From: a virus | Reading direction: 5' to 3' (one strand) | DNA: 64,000 bases | Virus record (IMG/VR): IMGVR_UViG_3300042520_002054 | Span: 1-64,000 of that record | Shown here: one piece after another, positions 25,446 to 28,914 of the stretch | Numbering within the stretch: the first letter of the stretch is position 1 | Layout of the letters: every line of letters starts with the position of its first letter | Notes under the pieces: generated by a model | What the model was told of the DNA's origin: nothing | Database searches by the model: none | Seen by the model: only the letters and a program-made list of their open reading frames with translations | Program-made: the position numbers and the translations under genes

Positions 25446-25958
25446 CTATTGGTCATATGCAAGTTGTTGACCACCTCTTGCAGTACCTTTCTGTTCTTCC
25501 ATAAGATCTTTATATGCTCCTTTGAATGACATACGAATCTGCTCAAACTTTGCTGCTGCATTTACAAGAGAGTTGATATTACCATCACGACCATGCTCAA
25601 TAGGTGTATTCTCCATATATCGAGCAAGTCTATCAAGCATTTGCTTTATACCCATGTATGCGCGATACGTAGGTGTCTCGTAAAGCTTTTCACAAAATTT
25701 TAATGCATCTCTAATTGTAGTATCTTCTGTAGAAAATTCAGCATTGACTTCACGTAAAATCAATTCTTCTTTATCATTTTCGACAATATCAAAAAAAGGA
25801 TTTAGTTCTGGATTAGGACACGTCATATAAAACACATACGCATATACTGACAAATAATCTTCAGGATATTCGTCAAATATTTTCTTTAGAGTTTCCAATA
25901 CAAAGCAATGCTCTGTGGGAACTACTGTACCATTCTGAACATCAAACAGCTTGACCAT
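25446..25958 (-). CDS. Conserved crAss-like protein upstream of the terminase (small-terminase candidate)
   Basis: 170 aa helical protein with C-terminal RGG; synteny. Confidence 0.45.
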   Translation of the reverse strand: MVKLFDVQNGTVVPTEHCFVLETLKKIFDEYPEDYLSVYAYVFYMTCPNPELNPFFDIVENDKEELILREVNAEFSTEDTTIRDALKFCEKLYETPTYRAYMGIKQMLDRLARYMENTPIEHGRDGNINSLVNAAAKFEQIRMSFKGAYKDLMEEQKGTARGGQQLAYDQ

Positions 25959-26799
25959 ACTTCTTCATTAAAAGTTTTTCTTTATTTTCCTGGTAGTGTT
26001 TCAATAAACTTACCACCTCATCTTTCAAATAAGGTAGCCGATAAATAACAACTTCCTTTACTTTAGGATAACCCTTTTCATCATAAATAACAAGAGGAAA
26101 TCCATTTTCATCTTTTTCATCACGCTCTTCAAAAAGAATATGATGAATTGTCAAATCACCCGCTTGCAATTTGGGATTATGCTTTAGTACAATATACATG
26201 TACAAAGAAAGTTGCAGGTTGTAATGATTAAGATTACAATCATCCAAATGTGAAACAGGGTATTCCATTTTTTGTGAAATACCCTCCCAGTTTCTGTAGC
26301 TTTCTTTTTTAATCTCTTTGTTTGTTTTGTAATCCGTGATATATACTTTTCCATTCGCAACTTCTACCAAATCACTTTGACCACATATACCTGCTGATTT
26401 TAAATAAACCATATGCTCAGGATAAATACCACCTGTAAGTTTTTGTTCGGGAGCAACCTTGTAACCGTTTGCATCTACAATAGGTGCATAAATTGGCAGC
26501 TCTGTATTATATCTAACAATAGTATTACAACCTAAAAGATCATCTTCTCTTTGTTTGTGATACCAGTTTCCTAGTCCTGTTGCTCTGTCAGCTTCTTTTT
26601 TCCAAATAGCTCGAATGTCTTCAGGACGCATACCATACCATTTACTTTTAGAATTTCTGGAAGATTTTTCAGAAATAGTTTTAGGGTCAAATGGTTGTTT
26701 GTAAAAACTTAAAAGTGTTGTAGCACTTACCCACTTTACAGATTCAGACTTATCTATTGAGTGATAAGAATGATCTGATTCGTTAAAATATATTTCCAT
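25942..26799 (-). CDS. PD-(D/E)XK exonuclease
   Basis: GQSDLV...ITDYKTNK...YNLQLSLY motifs. Confidence 0.85.
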   Translation of the reverse strand: MEIYFNESDHSYHSIDKSESVKWVSATTLLSFYKQPFDPKTISEKSSRNSKSKWYGMRPEDIRAIWKKEADRATGLGNWYHKQREDDLLGCNTIVRYNTELPIYAPIVDANGYKVAPEQKLTGGIYPEHMVYLKSAGICGQSDLVEVANGKVYITDYKTNKEIKKESYRNWEGISQKMEYPVSHLDDCNLNHYNLQLSLYMYIVLKHNPKLQAGDLTIHHILFEERDEKDENGFPLVIYDEKGYPKVKEVVIYRLPYLKDEVVSLLKHYQENKEKLLMKKYGQAV

Positions 26800-26811: not shown

Positions 26812-27123
26812 TTACATTCCTAATTTTTGCTCAAGCTTTTGAGCCTCTTCTTCAGTGAGTTCACTAGACCACTTAGATGCAGGACAACTGCTTGCTAAAC
26901 TTCTGGTTTTAAAAAATAATTTGCATCCGCAAAGACTGCAACAAGGTTGCGTACCAGCAACTAAGCACTTGTCACCTTTGTTATCAATATGCTCGCATCC
27001 ATTGCAAATACTCATACGTTCTTTTGCAATAGCTTCGACATCCTCTTTGGTAAATATTGAGTTCTTGATACCCTCAATAATTTCACCCTTGCTTTTCCAA
27101 ATTCGAATTATGCTGTTCATAGT
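26812..27123 (-). CDS. Cys-rich Zn-binding protein
   Basis: RMSICNGCEH...CSLCGC...KT......CP..KW; start taken near MNSIIRIW. Confidence 0.6.
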   Translation of the reverse strand, partial: TMNSIIRIWKSKGEIIEGIKNSIFTKEDVEAIAKERMSICNGCEHIDNKGDKCLVAGTQPCCSLCGCKLFFKTRSLASSCPASKWSSELTEEEAQKLEQKLGM

Positions 27124-27484
27124 TTTTTCTTTGGTTTTTGATTTCAGCTTTTTCAGTTTCAAGTGTAGCAACTTTTTCTTTTAAGTCTAAAAGTTTATCA
27201 AGCTGATCGTACTTGTCTTTTAGAATGCTGTATTGCTGTAATGTTTTTGGTGCACCGATTGTTTCGATCAACCTCTGTAGTCTTGCTATTTTATTTTCCA
27301 AAGACCAAGGTTTTACAACAAATGTTCCCAGATTTGGAACTTGTATGTGTGTATGTGTGACTTGCGACATTTGATTATGCACATACTTCCAATATTGCAC
27401 TATTACAGAATCAACAATTTCTTCGCTTACATTAAGCTTCTGTGCTGTCTTCTTTACTATTTGGTTTCTCTTGGTTGGTCTCAA
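27083..27484 (-). CDS. HU/IHF-like DNA-binding protein
   Basis: IVKKTAQKLNVS...IQVPNLGTFVVK. Confidence 0.7.
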   Translation of the reverse strand: MRPTKRNQIVKKTAQKLNVSEEIVDSVIVQYWKYVHNQMSQVTHTHIQVPNLGTFVVKPWSLENKIARLQRLIETIGAPKTLQQYSILKDKYDQLDKLLDLKEKVATLETEKAEIKNQRKNYEQHNSNLEKQG

Positions 27485-27854
27485 CTGCTAAAAAATTATA
27501 GTTTAGTAAAATGTTTCCTTTTTTTGCAACATTTAATCCATCAATAAGTCTAATTACTTTCTTACCCTTACGTGATTTAATCACATAACCTCTCTTTTCA
27601 AGACTTACCATTCTGTTTCTTACGTTCTGTGAACGTACTTCTGGTTTTTCTGTATGCTTATATACAATACCTGCAGCACGATCACAGAACAAACGCAGTT
27701 CAATTGGACCCCATAAACCTAATAGTGTCAGCAGTTCCAAATCACTAGAAACAATGCTCTCTTTTTTAAAGAACATTACTTCTGTAATGATTTGGTACTT
27801 TACCAGATCGTAGTGATCTAGTCTTACCTTTTTTGTTATTTTGTTTACTTCCAT
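27432..27854 (-). CDS. Winged-HTH-like DNA-binding protein
   Basis: SQNVRNRMVSLEKRGYVIK pattern. Confidence 0.5.
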   Translation of the reverse strand: MEVNKITKKVRLDHYDLVKYQIITEVMFFKKESIVSSDLELLTLLGLWGPIELRLFCDRAAGIVYKHTEKPEVRSQNVRNRMVSLEKRGYVIKSRKGKKVIRLIDGLNVAKKGNILLNYNFLAVETNQEKPNSKEDSTEA

Positions 27855-27873
27855 TTTGGTTTTATTTCTTAAT

Positions 27874-27995
27874 AATGTCAGTGAGCGAGTTTCACGCTCA
27901 TCTCCTATAATCCAGTTATATCTGCGGATACAACTGTAACCCTTGCCACCTAAGGGATAGGCGTGCTTTTTTTACGCTTGCACCAACACGACATT
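27874..27995 (-). ncRNA. tRNA-like structured RNA with a branched arm replacing the anticodon loop
   Basis: AATGTCG/TGACATT closing stem, GTGC/GCAC arm, CCTAT/ATAGG stem enclosing two hairpins, and a GAGCG-TGAAACT-CGCTC T-like arm. Confidence 0.55.
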
Positions 27996-28006
27996 GACTA
28001 TGTTTA

Positions 28007-28305
28007 CTGATTTTTCATAAGGTGGGAGTCCTGACTACCCACAAGTCTAACGCATGTCCCTTTTCACCCATAATCCAAGTAGATGATCAGTCTACCTGTA
28101 ATGATTAGCTGGATTGACTACCAGCACCTGCTGCGGAGATCAGTATGTATATTCTTCGCAGGACCCCAGAGCTTATTGGTTACGCTACCTTTAAGTTGAG
28201 TGGTTTTATCCTCCATGCCTGACAACGTGCGTCCCAGTGCTTTGCAGAACGGTAACACTACATTAACCCCTCTCAAGAGTTTGTTCAGTCACAAATGAAA
28301 ATCAG
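28007..28305 (-). ncRNA. About 300-nt multi-hairpin ncRNA candidate
   Basis: No ORF of 60 aa or more, GC-richer than flanks, terminal stem CTGATTTTCAT/ATGAAAAATCAG, at least four internal hairpins; directly downstream of tRNA-Met. Confidence 0.55.
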
Positions 28306-28325
28306 ATTTCTCAAAGAACGATTTG

Positions 28326-28400
28326 TTGCGGGGGTGAGATTCGAACTCACGTAGTTTGGCTTATGAGACCAAGCTGGAACCAACTCCAGTCTACCCCGCC
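28326..28400 (-). tRNA. tRNA-Met (CAT), possibly initiator-like
   Basis: GGCGGGG...TTGGT-CTCATAA-GCCAA...GTGAG-TTCGAAT-CTCAC-CCCCGCA-A; 1:72 mismatch; CCA not encoded. Confidence 0.9.
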
Positions 28401-28405
28401 TTTAG

Positions 28406-28681
28406 TTACCAGACAATTGCAATGTCTCTTTCAGCAATCATCAAACGTGTTTCACCTTCTACTTCAATAATCTCAGTATTTTGAAGAATAATTGCAGGGA
28501 TATACACTTTGTCACCTGGTTTTACCAGTGACACTTCTTCTCCAACAGCATACACTTCAAGAGCTGTCCACTGCTTCATCATGTCTTTCTCAAGCTGAGC
28601 CTCTCCTTCAGGAGTTAATACGATCTTAGAGTCCGGTTTTACCGGTTTTTTCAAAAGAATTCTTGTTCCTACTAGTTTCAT
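28406..28681 (-). CDS. groES: GroES/Cpn10-like co-chaperonin
   Basis: MKLVGTRILLK...EVYAVGEEVSLVKPGDKV...LMIAERDIAIV. Confidence 0.85.
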   Translation of the reverse strand: MKLVGTRILLKKPVKPDSKIVLTPEGEAQLEKDMMKQWTALEVYAVGEEVSLVKPGDKVYIPAIILQNTEIIEVEGETRLMIAERDIAIVW

Positions 28682-28706
28682 AATTTATTGGTTTATAATT
28701 GTTTAG

Positions 28707-28780
28707 AGCCACCAGTAGGAATCGAACCCACAACCTACTGAGTACAAATCAGTTGCTCTACCAGATTGAGCTATGGTGGC
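28707..28780 (-). tRNA. tRNA-Thr (TGT)
   Basis: GCCACCA-TAGCTCAATCTGGTAGAGC-A-ACTGA-TTTGTAC-TCAGT...GTGGG-TTCGATT-CCTAC-TGGTGGC-T. Confidence 0.95.
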
Positions 28781-28785
28781 AAGAC

Positions 28786-28914
28786 CTAATCAGTTTTCTT
28801 TCTTTGTTGGTTTTTCTTGTTAGAAAACTTTTCAAAACCACGGTTATCGTAGTTCCTTTCCTCGATGTCTTCAATCCAACGGTTTCGCTTAGGTCCTCCT
28901 CGTTCTTTTCTCAT
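28786..28914 (-). CDS. 42-aa highly charged microprotein (not in ORF track)
   Basis: MRKERGGPKRNRWIEDIEERNYDNRGFEKFSNKKNQQRKKTD*; fills the gap upstream of tRNA-Thr. Confidence 0.45.
   Translation of the reverse strand: MRKERGGPKRNRWIEDIEERNYDNRGFEKFSNKKNQQRKKTD

What the first reader, a model, noticed from the sequence alone, without database searches (positions are those of the whole stretch)
27874..27995. Second tRNA-like RNA whose anticodon loop is replaced by two hairpins
Seen on the minus strand: closing stem AATGTCG/TGACATT; D-like arm GTGC..GCAC; CCTAT/ATAGG stem branching into CCCTT-AGGTGGC-AAGGG and CAGTTGTATC-CGCA-GATATAACTG; and a T-like arm GAGCG-TGAAACT-CGCTC. It lies downstream of tRNA-Thr and tRNA-Met on the same strand. 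Inference: with the 35972 element, the phage may encode two unrelated anticodon-less tRNA mimics, one in each transcription block, which hints at a tRNA-mimicry system.
Basis: partly seen in the sequence, partly recalled or inferred. Interest (0 to 1): 0.7.

Follow-up and report, generated by a model that had tools for sequence, protein, structure and literature searches.

The report
tRNA-shaped leader RNA in lake phages
A conserved 122-base RNA that copies the core of a tRNA but carries two hairpins instead of an anticodon always sits just before the same small gene in a group of lake phages. It probably marks where host tRNA-trimming enzymes cut the message.

Summary

I found 22 distinct copies in uncultured freshwater crAss-like phages. 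Across them 90.9% of 783 pair cells are standard pairs, and 32 of 37 pairs changed on both sides. No Rfam family and no tRNA finder recognises the element, so it is a new RNA family.

The tRNA likeness goes beyond shape. A U-purine linker, a 4-bp D-like stem, a 5-bp T-like stem with a 7-nt loop and a G-C closing pair are present in all copies. Loop bases sit where tRNA has A14, R15, G18, Y48, U54, R57 and A58 in 21-22 of 22 copies. The 19:56 pair is swapped to U:A.

It is not a free member of the tRNA cluster. In 22 of 22 copies it ends 14-24 nt before the start codon of one orthologous 131-140-aa gene. The upstream neighbour varies: manA-like RNA, tmRNA, tRNA-Met, or a protein gene.

My best reading (0.4) is a tRNA-like punctuation element cut out by RNase P and RNase Z/E, which frees the mRNA. 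A regulatory leader is the main rival (0.3). The proposed two-RNA mimicry system is not supported.

The scan has noted analogous tRNA-shaped phage leaders on other DNA. None of them is a sequence look-alike of this element.

The parts
27874..27995 (-). Whole six-helix tRNA-shaped RNA domain (122 nt), a new family
   Evidence: R1 hit at 143.6 bits. Covariation in 22 copies. No Rfam family at E<=10.
27989..27995 (-). P1 5' strand (acceptor-like closing stem, 7 bp including one G-U); pairs with 27874-27880
   Evidence: Sequence. All 7 pairs changed on both sides across clades.
27984..27988 (-). J1/2 linker. Its last two bases are U-G; U-purine stands directly before P2 in 22 of 22 copies (U8/R9-like).
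27963..27983 (-). P2 (4 bp, D-like stem) with its 13-nt loop L2. The first two loop bases are A-A, and G-U at loop positions 5-6 is invariant.
27904..27961 (-). P3 (5 bp, anticodon-stem-like; 27957-27961 pairs with 27904-27908), which encloses the P4 and P5 hairpins
   Evidence: The window and L002 elements differ at 4 columns of the alignment, and two of these are the two sides of one P3 pair. All 5 P3 pairs changed on both sides.
27940..27956 (-). P4 hairpin (5 bp) with loop L4, which carries the conserved GGUGG
   Evidence: GGUGG in 21 of 22 copies: 17 of the 18 tabulated, plus all 4 added copies printed. All 5 P4 pairs changed on both sides.
27913..27936 (-). P5 hairpin (10 bp) with tetraloop CGCA
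   Evidence: All 10 pairs changed on both sides. Of the 18 copies, the tip loop reads CGCA in 14, CACA in 3 and other in 1, by my reading of that output. The 4 added copies also read CGCA.
27883..27899 (-). P6 (5 bp, T-like stem, G-C closing pair) with the 7-nt loop UGAAACU
   Evidence: G-C closing pair in 22 of 22. Loop positions 1, 3, 5 and 7 identical in 21 of 22, and positions 2 and 4 in 22 of 22. 4 of 5 pairs changed on both sides.
27874..27880 (-). P1 3' strand. RNA-library contigs of the downstream gene stop at 27873 and 27877.
27855..27873 (-). 19-nt A-rich, unstructured leader between the element and the start codon. No terminator-like site.
27432..27854 (-). The constantly linked gene (140 aa). 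No Pfam or PHROG family; weak winged-helix-like model.
   Evidence: Orthologue follows the element in 22 of 22 copies.
28016..28313 (-). Upstream neighbour in this phage: manA-like structured RNA. It is context, not part of the element.
   Evidence: RF01745 at 25.4 bits, below the gathering score of 55.2. High depth in 4 RNA libraries.
28325..28400 (-). tRNA-Met (CAT) further upstream (context)

Best explanation
The element is a conserved RNA domain of a new family. Its outer part imitates the core of a tRNA: a closing stem stacked on a T-like arm, a U-purine linker, a 4-bp D-like stem, and loop bases at the tRNA elbow and core positions. The anticodon loop is replaced by two hairpins with conserved loops (GGUGG and CGCA/CACA).

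It is built into the 5' side of the transcript of one conserved small gene. My proposed mechanism is as follows.
1. Transcription runs through the phage's RNA-gene cluster, or through whatever lies upstream, into this gene.
2. The domain folds like a tRNA.
3. The host's tRNA end-processing enzymes cut it out: RNase P at its 5' edge and RNase Z or RNase E just after the closing stem.
4. This frees the downstream mRNA with a short A-rich leader. The logic is that of tRNA punctuation or a 't-element'.
5. A roughly 125-nt RNA is released, whose conserved hairpin loops may bind a further partner.

Shown here: the fold, its conservation, the tRNA-core signature, single copy per genome, and the invariable link to the gene. 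Inferred: co-transcription, cleavage, the enzymes involved, and any role of the released RNA.
For: Fold and covariation:
- 22 distinct copies; 90.9% of cells paired; 32 of 37 pairs with changes on both sides; slid controls 34-44%.

tRNA-core signature in 22 copies:
- U then purine before P2: 22 of 22.
- L2 begins A-A (A14, R15): 22 of 22.
- G-U at the 18-19 positions: 22 of 22.
- U before P6 (Y48-like, able to form the A15:U48 Levitt pair named in PMC4201824): 22 of 22.
- G53-C61-like closing pair: 22 of 22.
- U54, A56, A58: 21 of 22 each. A57: 22 of 22.
- Positions 19 and 56, which pair G:C in tRNA (recalled), are U and A here.
- In 16 of the 17 second-clade copies the closing helix is 8-9 bp, the linker to P2 is 2 nt, and no base separates P6 from the closing helix.

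Gene link:
- The element ends 14-24 nt before the orthologue's AUG in 22 of 22 copies. This includes 4 distinct copies found by a loop-motif scan that did not use the protein.
- The upstream neighbour varies. It is a manA-like RNA in the window; tmRNA 5-6 nt away in L002/L003/L025; tRNA-Met 5 nt away in L005; tRNA-Met plus a hairpin spacer in the second clade; and a protein-gene stop 17 nt away in L113.
- In a relative that lacks the element, a true tRNA-Met ends 18 nt before the same AUG (L009/L065).
- The phage tRNA-Met and tmRNA genes encode no CCA, so 3' endonucleolytic processing is expected in this host. That step is inference.
- No terminator-like site lies between the cluster and the gene.

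Weak hint of an RNA end:
- RNA-library contigs of two studies cover the gene and stop at 27873 and 27877, with no loose end. DNA runs hold all sampled words of the stretch.

Precedent:
- t-elements and tRNAs upstream of plant mitochondrial genes define mRNA 5' ends through RNase Z/P (PMC1920247, abstract and passages).
- RNase P also cuts non-tRNA phage RNAs and mRNAs (PMC11143913, passages).
Against: - No cleavage has been shown. The contig ends could be assembly breaks between co-occurring strains, and I did not lay DNA runs.
- The T-like loop has G and A where tRNA has the universal U55 and C56 (recalled). It lacks the GGTTCRANYCC motif of plant t-elements.
- No tRNA model sees the element.
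- The closing helix is 8-9 bp with a 2-nt bulge in most second-clade copies. In the window clade 2-3 nt separate P6 from P1 and the linker is 5-6 nt, so the acceptor/T geometry is not strictly that of tRNA.
- A mere cutting signal does not explain why the GGUGG and CGCA loops are as conserved as the core.
- Orthologues at 49-57% identity manage with two plain covarying hairpins at the same place. This fits a generic 'structured leader' as well.
- No CCA is encoded after the closing stem.
Confidence: 0.4

Rival explanations
1. It is a cis-regulatory leader. The folded domain stays on the mRNA and controls translation or stability of the downstream gene by binding a ligand, a tRNA-binding factor, or the gene's own winged-helix-like product. 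That would be an operator in the manner of the tRNA-like thrS leader (recalled).
For: - Constant position 14-24 nt before one orthologous AUG in 22 of 22 copies, with varying upstream neighbours.
- Orthologues without it carry other structured leaders at the same spot: two covarying hairpins, or another closed structure in L112/L114 (seen by eye).
- Sequence-specific conserved loops L2, L4, L5 and L6 suggest a binding surface.
- One copy per genome.
Against: - No expression platform. There is no terminator-like site, and the A-rich start region stays outside the fold.
- The alternative 8-bp helix seen in the window clade is not kept in the second clade.
- Conserved bases sit in terminal loops and tRNA-core positions rather than in a junction pocket.
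- The protein's fold is only weakly winged-helix-like (pLDDT 65.8; best Foldseek E 0.27). Nothing shows that it binds RNA.
- The RNA-library contigs do not run into the element (weak).
Confidence: 0.3
2. One reading: a free-standing, trans-acting anticodon-less tRNA mimic. It would be a decoy or adaptor for tRNA-binding enzymes or tRNA-targeting defences, belong to the phage's RNA-gene cluster, and perhaps work together with the 35972 element.
For: - tRNA-core signature.
- In the window clade it starts 5-6 nt after a tRNA or tmRNA in 4 of 5 variants, like a tandem tRNA gene.
- Phage T4 ends its tRNA cluster with two small stable RNAs, rnaD and rnaC. rnaC has a canonical T arm and a similar branched fold.
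- YrlA RNAs show that tRNA mimics with a replaced anticodon arm exist (PMC4201824).
Against: - The link is to the gene, not to tRNAs. L113 has it 17 nt after a protein gene, L111 has no tRNA called by ARAGORN upstream, and the second clade has a hairpin spacer.
- No copy occurs in any other context. The two pattern scans of IMG/VR gave 9 and 88 stretches (80 listed), one metagenome scan gave 11, and one genome scan gave 21. All model-positive copies that I examined lie before this gene; L158 was not examined.
- No Ro60/TROVE gene in the complete 120.7-kb genome.
- The 35972 element does not co-occur.
Confidence: 0.12
3. It is a generic 5' structure that only protects the mRNA end or insulates it from upstream folding, with no specific recognition. 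The tRNA likeness would be a relic of descent from a tRNA gene.
For: - Relatives use simple hairpins at the same place.
- The position is just outside the expected ribosome footprint (inference).
- The locus is a hot spot where RNA genes come and go between close relatives.
Against: - Four loops and the core positions are invariant or nearly so across two clades whose stems have been almost completely rewritten.
- In the alignment the last 30 columns are invariant in all five window-clade copies. Third codon positions of the adjacent gene are only 76% identical between the window and L003 (107 of 141).
- A simple stabiliser needs neither feature.
Confidence: 0.1
4. It is a DNA-level site (operator, promoter or recombination site), or a decaying tRNA pseudogene without function.
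For: - A sigma-70-like match overlaps the 3' edge (27881-27853).
- The gene product looks weakly like a DNA-binding winged helix.
Against: - Promoter-like matches are at the chance level: 4 found against 3.6 +/- 2.1 expected. The one at the 3' edge ends on the start codon.
- Six nested helices with G-U intermediates on this strand and compensatory changes indicate RNA pairing.
- A pseudogene would not keep 90.9% pairing over 22 diverged copies.
Confidence: 0.03

Closest known systems
t-elements and tRNA punctuation of organellar transcripts (Forner et al. 2007, PMC1920247; abstract and passages read)
   Same: A non-decoding tRNA-like cloverleaf, or a true tRNA, placed directly upstream of a protein gene. 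Its edges define mRNA ends through RNase P and RNase Z. The excised element can persist as a small RNA.
   Different: Plant t-elements were found through a canonical T arm (GGTTCRANYCC), which this element lacks. The present RNA is from a phage of bacteria, has a branched two-hairpin 'anticodon' domain with conserved loops, and its cleavage has not been shown.
Phage T4 small stable RNAs rnaD (species 2, 119 nt) and rnaC (species 1, 139 nt), NC_000866
   Same: Non-tRNA RNAs of about 120-140 nt on the same strand directly after phage tRNA genes. rnaC folds with a closing stem, internal hairpins and a T arm.
   Different: No similarity to model R1. rnaC keeps a canonical T arm. The next annotated gene downstream of rnaC in T4 (e.8) ends about 285 nt away, not 14-24 nt. 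That the function of the T4 RNAs is still unknown is recalled, not checked.
YrlA / bacterial Y RNAs (Chen et al. 2014, PMC4201824; abstract and passages read)
   Same: tRNA mimics in which acceptor-, D- and T-like parts and tertiary pairs such as the 15:48 Levitt pair are kept while the anticodon arm is replaced by another module. Some are in phages, and one is cut by RNase P.
   Different: YrlA lies next to a Ro60/Rsr gene and carries its binding site. This complete phage genome has no TROVE gene, and no Rfam family matched the element at E<=10 in either search that covered it; I recall that Rfam holds a YrlA family, but I did not look its accession up.
Canonical tRNA (Rfam RF00005)
   Same: Four-arm layout; U-purine linker; 4-bp D-like and 5-bp T-like stems; 7-nt T-like loop; bases at positions 14, 15, 18, 48, 53, 54, 57, 58 and 61.
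   Different: No anticodon loop. Positions 19, 55 and 56 differ. No encoded CCA. Not detected by RF00005 or by ARAGORN, with or without the intron option.
Candidate structured RNAs of IMG/VR viruses (Fremin et al. 2023, PMC10690425; abstract and passages read)
   Same: That survey reports tRNA-like candidates and candidates consistently upstream of genes in the same collection in which these copies lie.
   Different: The text I could read names no such motif.

Membership tests
Canonical tRNA (RF00005) | Cloverleaf of closing stem, D arm, anticodon stem and T arm with short fixed connectors | tested here: met
   Six-helix model with P1, P2, P3 and P6 in tRNA order. Connectors of 2 nt and 0 nt in 16 of 17 second-clade copies; 5-6 nt and 2-3 nt in the 5 window-clade copies.
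Canonical tRNA (RF00005) | 7-nt anticodon loop with an anticodon | tested here: not met
   P3 opens into hairpins P4 and P5 in all 22 copies.
Canonical tRNA (RF00005) | Universal core bases (U8, A14, R15, G18, G19, Y48, G53, U54, U55, C56, R57, A58, C61; list recalled) | tested here: inconclusive
   10 of 13 positions are matched in 21-22 of 22 copies. Positions 19, 55 and 56 are U, G and A instead, and U19/A56 could still pair. The numbering of the 12-13-nt loop is my assignment.
Canonical tRNA (RF00005) | Recognition by tRNA models | tested here: not met
   No RF00005 match at E<=10 on the element in an 801-nt search. ARAGORN at default settings, and with introns allowed, found 0 of 11 copies tested; only inconsistent calls appeared at lowered thresholds.
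t-element / tRNA-like processing signal | tRNA-like fold directly flanking an mRNA end | tested here: inconclusive
   The fold is met. The mRNA end has only a weak hint: RNA-library contigs of two studies stop at 27873 and 27877.
t-element / tRNA-like processing signal | Cleavage by RNase P and/or RNase Z | not testable with these tools
   Needs in vitro cleavage or end mapping.
t-element / tRNA-like processing signal | Canonical T arm motif GGTTCRANYCC (used to find plant t-elements) | tested here: not met
   The loop is UGAAACU or a variant; the stems differ.
YrlA / Y RNA | Encoded next to a Ro60/Rsr (TROVE) gene | tested here: not met
   PF05731: 0 matches in the 120,708-bp genome, rated 100% complete; the controls matched.
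T4-type small stable RNAs of tRNA clusters | Similarity to rnaC/rnaD | tested here: not met
   R1 with filters off on the T4 tRNA region gave no hit on rnaC or rnaD.
Riboswitch / regulatory leader | Constant placement upstream of one gene family | tested here: met
   22 of 22 copies, 14-24 nt before the AUG.
Riboswitch / regulatory leader | Expression platform (terminator, or conserved alternative pairing with the start region) | tested here: not met
   No terminator-like site on the minus strand between 28400 and 27854. The alternative helix of the window clade is not conserved in the second clade.
Any Rfam family | Covariance-model match | tested here: not met
   No match on the element at E<=10 in the window, or at E<=1 in 4 second-clade loci that carry it.

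The most novel reading that the evidence does not exclude
The element is a two-part phage RNA device. A tRNA-core handle makes host tRNA enzymes release it, one copy per message of a regulator gene that precedes the block running to the packaging and head genes. The replaced anticodon domain (GGUGG and CGCA loops) then acts in trans, for example as a decoy or adaptor for a tRNA-binding host factor or a tRNA-targeting defence nuclease. Production of the small RNA and of the regulator would then be stoichiometrically coupled.
Probability: 0.12. Interest if true: 0.8.

Novelty: new variant of a known kind. Interest (0 to 1): 0.6.

Why it matters
If the reading holds, phages of Bacteroidota-type hosts use a purpose-built tRNA look-alike as punctuation between an RNA-gene cluster and a protein gene. 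That would tie phage gene expression to the host's tRNA-processing enzymes.

The family gives a clean test case. It has 22 diverged copies, a defined fold, four invariant loops that can be mutated, and a single linked gene. The swapped 19:56 pair and the replaced anticodon domain also make it a natural experiment on which tRNA features RNase P and RNase Z need.

In practice, it adds an unannotated RNA family to crAss-like phage genomes. It also shows that the stretch between tRNA-Met and this gene is a hot spot where structured RNAs (tmRNA, manA-like RNA, this element) are gained and lost.

Tried and rejected
Searches that found nothing
- Known RNA families: Rfam at gathering scores on the whole window, and at E<=10 on 27700-28500, found nothing on the element. 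The same held at E<=1 for second-clade loci.
- tRNA with an intron: ARAGORN with -i found 0 of 11 copies. Only inconsistent calls appeared at 60-80% thresholds.
- Cultured phages: blastn of 27400-28800 against 50,697 phage records matched only the tRNAs.
- Prokaryote genomes: the loop-motif pattern gave 21 stretches. R1, with default filters and E<=1, scored none of them.
- Distant orthologue loci: 29 loci at 49-57% protein identity gave no credible R1 hit with filters off. The best was 15.6 bits, E 0.044, away from the leader.
- The 19-mer scan of metagenome contigs gave 11 stretches. Three were the element and 8 were unrelated by eye.

Ideas considered and dropped
- A hammerhead- or twister-like core, considered by eye: no Rfam support, and the candidate bases vary between copies.
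- A structural switch. The window-clade MFE uses an 8-bp helix between J1/2-P2 and the P6/P1 3' strands, and GGUGG can pair with the P3 5' strand. Neither pairing is kept in the second clade.

Protein function
- The protein has no Pfam or PHROG family. The Atlas neighbours are unnamed viral clusters. The model has pLDDT 65.8, and the Foldseek matches are all E>=0.27, of winged-helix type. This is only a lead.

RNA libraries
- No contig of the four RNA libraries was laid on 27892-27975 at >=90% likeness. This part without cover is not evidence either way. Small structured RNAs and strain-variable stretches assemble poorly.

Papers
- Searches for 'crAss-like' + 'tRNA-like' (1 paper, listing only, not read) and for 'Crassvirales' + 'tmRNA' (9 papers, listings only) gave no title or abstract start pointing to such an element; I did not open these papers.
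- The supplements of PMC10690425 could not be read.

Full report
THE OBSERVATION

- P1: a 7-bp closing stem.
- P2: a 4-bp stem with a 13-nt A-rich loop.
- P3: a 5-bp stem that opens into two hairpins.
- P4: 5 bp, loop with GGUGG.
- P5: 10 bp, loop CGCA.
- P6: 5 bp with the 7-nt loop UGAAACU.

On its own the sequence is only modestly structured. Nothing in Rfam matches the element even at E<=10 in an 801-nt search, and ARAGORN does not call it.

RELATIVES AND COVARIATION

Window clade.
- The protein of the gene just downstream (27432-27854) led to IMG/VR contigs with the element.
- Exact-word scans added metagenome copies.
- This gave 5 distinct variants: window, L002, L003, L005 and L025.
- The window and L002 differ at only 4 columns of the alignment. 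Two of these are the two sides of one P3 pair.
- I built covariance model R1 from these five. It finds one copy in the window.

Second clade.
- A scan for three invariant loop motifs with free stems found a diverged copy, L070/L071, at 48.7 bits.
- Its linked protein led to many more loci. R1, filters off, was run on 20 of those 23 loci. I left out two that repeat the L070/L071 contigs and one that holds only the gene's end.
- R1 hit 16 of the 20. Of the other four, one has no room upstream, one is cut inside the element by the contig end, and two (L112, L114) carry a different structure.
- A looser loop-motif scan gave 88 stretches, of which 80 were listed. I passed the 73 new loci to R1, and 20 matched.
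- Seven of the 20 are on contigs not seen before. I examined six of them; they give 4 further distinct sequences. L158 was not examined.

All 22 distinct copies together.
- 90.9% of 783 cells pair, against 34-44% when partners are slid by 1-3 columns.
- 32 of 37 pairs changed on both sides, against 11-15 when slid.
- Every helix has compensatory changes.
- These alignments are fitted to the model. A structure-blind MAFFT/RNAalifold run on 19 of the 22 recovered P1, P4, the P5 tip and P6, but not P2 or P3.

HOW tRNA-LIKE IS IT?

The layout is a cloverleaf. In 16 of the 17 second-clade copies:
- the closing helix is 8-9 bp, mostly 6 bp + a 2-nt bulge + 3 bp, and L111 shows a compensatory change in the inner part;
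- the linker to P2 is 2 nt;
- nothing separates P6 from the closing helix.

The window clade is looser, with a 5-6-nt linker and a 2-3-nt gap.

The conserved unpaired bases fall on tRNA core positions (the position list is recalled; the numbering of the loop is my assignment).
- U then purine before P2: 22 of 22.
- A-A opening L2: 22 of 22.
- G-U at loop positions 5-6: 22 of 22.
- U before P6: 22 of 22.
- G-C closing P6: 22 of 22.
- U, A and A at T-like loop positions 1, 3 and 5: 21 of 22 each. A at position 4: 22 of 22.

A15 with U48 is an allowed Levitt pair (PMC4201824). Where tRNA pairs G19 with C56, this RNA has U and A. The universal U55 is G.

tRNA models do not see it. It has no anticodon loop and no encoded CCA. 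It is therefore a tRNA-core mimic and not a tRNA.

CONTEXT

The phage.
- The genome is a 120,708-bp virus record with terminal repeats.
- TerL, portal and major head protein lie downstream on the same strand.
- TerL's nearest relatives are crAss-like phages of Bacteroides, Flavobacterium and Cellulophaga, at about 26% identity.

The window, on the minus strand: tRNA-Thr, a GroES-like gene, tRNA-Met, a roughly 300-nt manA-like RNA, the element, a 19-nt A-rich leader, then the 140-aa gene.

Across relatives the upstream neighbour changes.
- tmRNA ends 5-6 nt before the element in L002, L003 and L025.
- tRNA-Met ends 5 nt before it in L005.
- tRNA-Met plus a roughly 28-nt hairpin spacer precedes it in most second-clade copies.
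- A protein-gene stop lies 17 nt before it in L113.
- L111 has no tRNA called by ARAGORN upstream.

The downstream neighbour never changes. The orthologue's AUG follows 14-24 nt after the closing helix in 22 of 22 copies.

There is one copy per genome.

Orthologues at 49-57% identity lack the element. They have either tmRNA plus two covarying hairpins, or a true tRNA-Met ending 18 nt before the AUG.

The gene itself has no family. Its model is weakly winged-helix-like.

RNA DATA

Four lake and aquatic metatranscriptome runs hold parts of the stretch as contigs.
- The manA-like RNA is far deeper (about 20-157) than the flanking genes (about 2-12).
- Contigs of the 140-aa gene from two studies stop at 27873 and 27877, the 3' edge of P1, without loose ends.
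- DNA runs hold all sampled words of the stretch.
- This is only a weak hint of an RNA end there, because strain mixtures can also break contigs.

INTERPRETATION

The fold, its selection, the tRNA-core signature and the link to the gene are shown. Function is inferred.

The reading that fits most facts is a tRNA-like punctuation element.
- It would be transcribed through from whatever lies upstream.
- It would be recognised and excised by the host's tRNA end-processing enzymes.
- That would liberate the mRNA with a short A-rich leader, as tRNAs and t-elements do in plant mitochondria (PMC1920247).
- It explains the constant distance to the AUG, the indifference to the upstream neighbour, the true tRNA at the same spot in a relative, the tRNA-core conservation and the contig ends.
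- It does not explain the equally conserved GGUGG and CGCA loops. These point to an additional partner, either for the released RNA or for a regulatory role on the mRNA.
- I put this reading at 0.4.

COMPARISON WITH KNOWN SYSTEMS

It works most like a t-element. By genomic setting it is nearest to T4 rnaC/rnaD, and by design it is nearest to YrlA. It fails a defining feature of each family:
- no canonical T arm;
- no similarity to the T4 RNAs;
- no Ro60 gene;
- no anticodon loop.

I therefore file it as a new RNA family that is a new variant of the tRNA-like-element kind.

The proposed pairing with the 35972 element is not supported.
- That element has a canonical T arm and a weak tRNA match (15.2 bits).
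- BLAST finds only a 38-nt piece of it in one close relative.
- BLAST finds nothing in three 95-99% complete second-clade genomes that carry this element.

Earlier notes of this scan describe analogous tRNA-shaped leader RNAs in other phages. None is a sequence look-alike of this one. I did not test them.

I found no description in the papers searched. The motif lists of PMC10690425 are in supplements I could not open.

Noticed in passing
window 28016-28313 (-): A roughly 300-nt structured RNA with a sub-threshold match to Rfam manA RNA (25.4 bits here and 29.8 bits in L002; gathering score 55.2). In four RNA libraries its contigs are about 20-157 deep, against about 2-12 for the flanking genes. 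In L071 a near-identical stretch (seen by eye) lies elsewhere, upstream of tRNA-Arg.
   Followed up: partly
window 28011-28203 (RNA run X15): One RNA-library contig (depth 72.7) joins 28203 back to 28011 ('goes back 193') inside the manA-like RNA. This could be a permuted or circular form, a tandem copy in a strain, or an assembly artefact.
   Followed up: no
L002 1894-2270; L003 2474-2849; L025 7045-7420; many of L039-L066: Close and distant relatives carry a phage tmRNA gene just upstream of the same gene (Rfam 71-95 bits). The predicted tags are long and most end in AA (LAA, VAA). The window's own phage lacks it.
   Followed up: partly
L039-L066, about 65 nt before the orthologous gene (alignment A6): Orthologues without the element have two short hairpins between tmRNA and the gene. 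8 of 14 pairs changed on both sides, with G-U intermediates on the coding strand.
   Followed up: partly
L114 1019-1095; L112 669-745: A tRNA (RF00005, 46.1 bits in L114) that ARAGORN reads with a four-base anticodon 'gtgc', about 105 nt upstream of the orthologous gene. A different closed structure follows it in place of the element.
   Followed up: no
window 28325-28400 (-): A tRNA-Met (CAT by eye) with an unusual D arm. ARAGORN reports 'tRNA-???', and Rfam scores it only 39.7 bits. Several relatives' copies are called tRNA-Met by ARAGORN (for example in L071).
   Followed up: partly
R1 does not hit it. Only a 38-nt piece is found in one close relative, and none in second-clade genomes.
   Followed up: partly
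L069 (phage T4) 2909-3047 (-): T4 rnaC folds (MFE -50.2 kcal/mol, z -4.57) with a closing stem, two internal hairpins and a canonical T arm. It is thus itself a tRNA-like RNA with a replaced anticodon region.
   Followed up: partly
window 27083-27484 (-): The gene after the linked gene has a weak, sub-threshold match to bacterial DNA-binding protein (HU/IHF type, 17 bits against a cut-off of 22.4). A PD-(D/E)XK exonuclease gene follows at 25942-26799.
   Followed up: no
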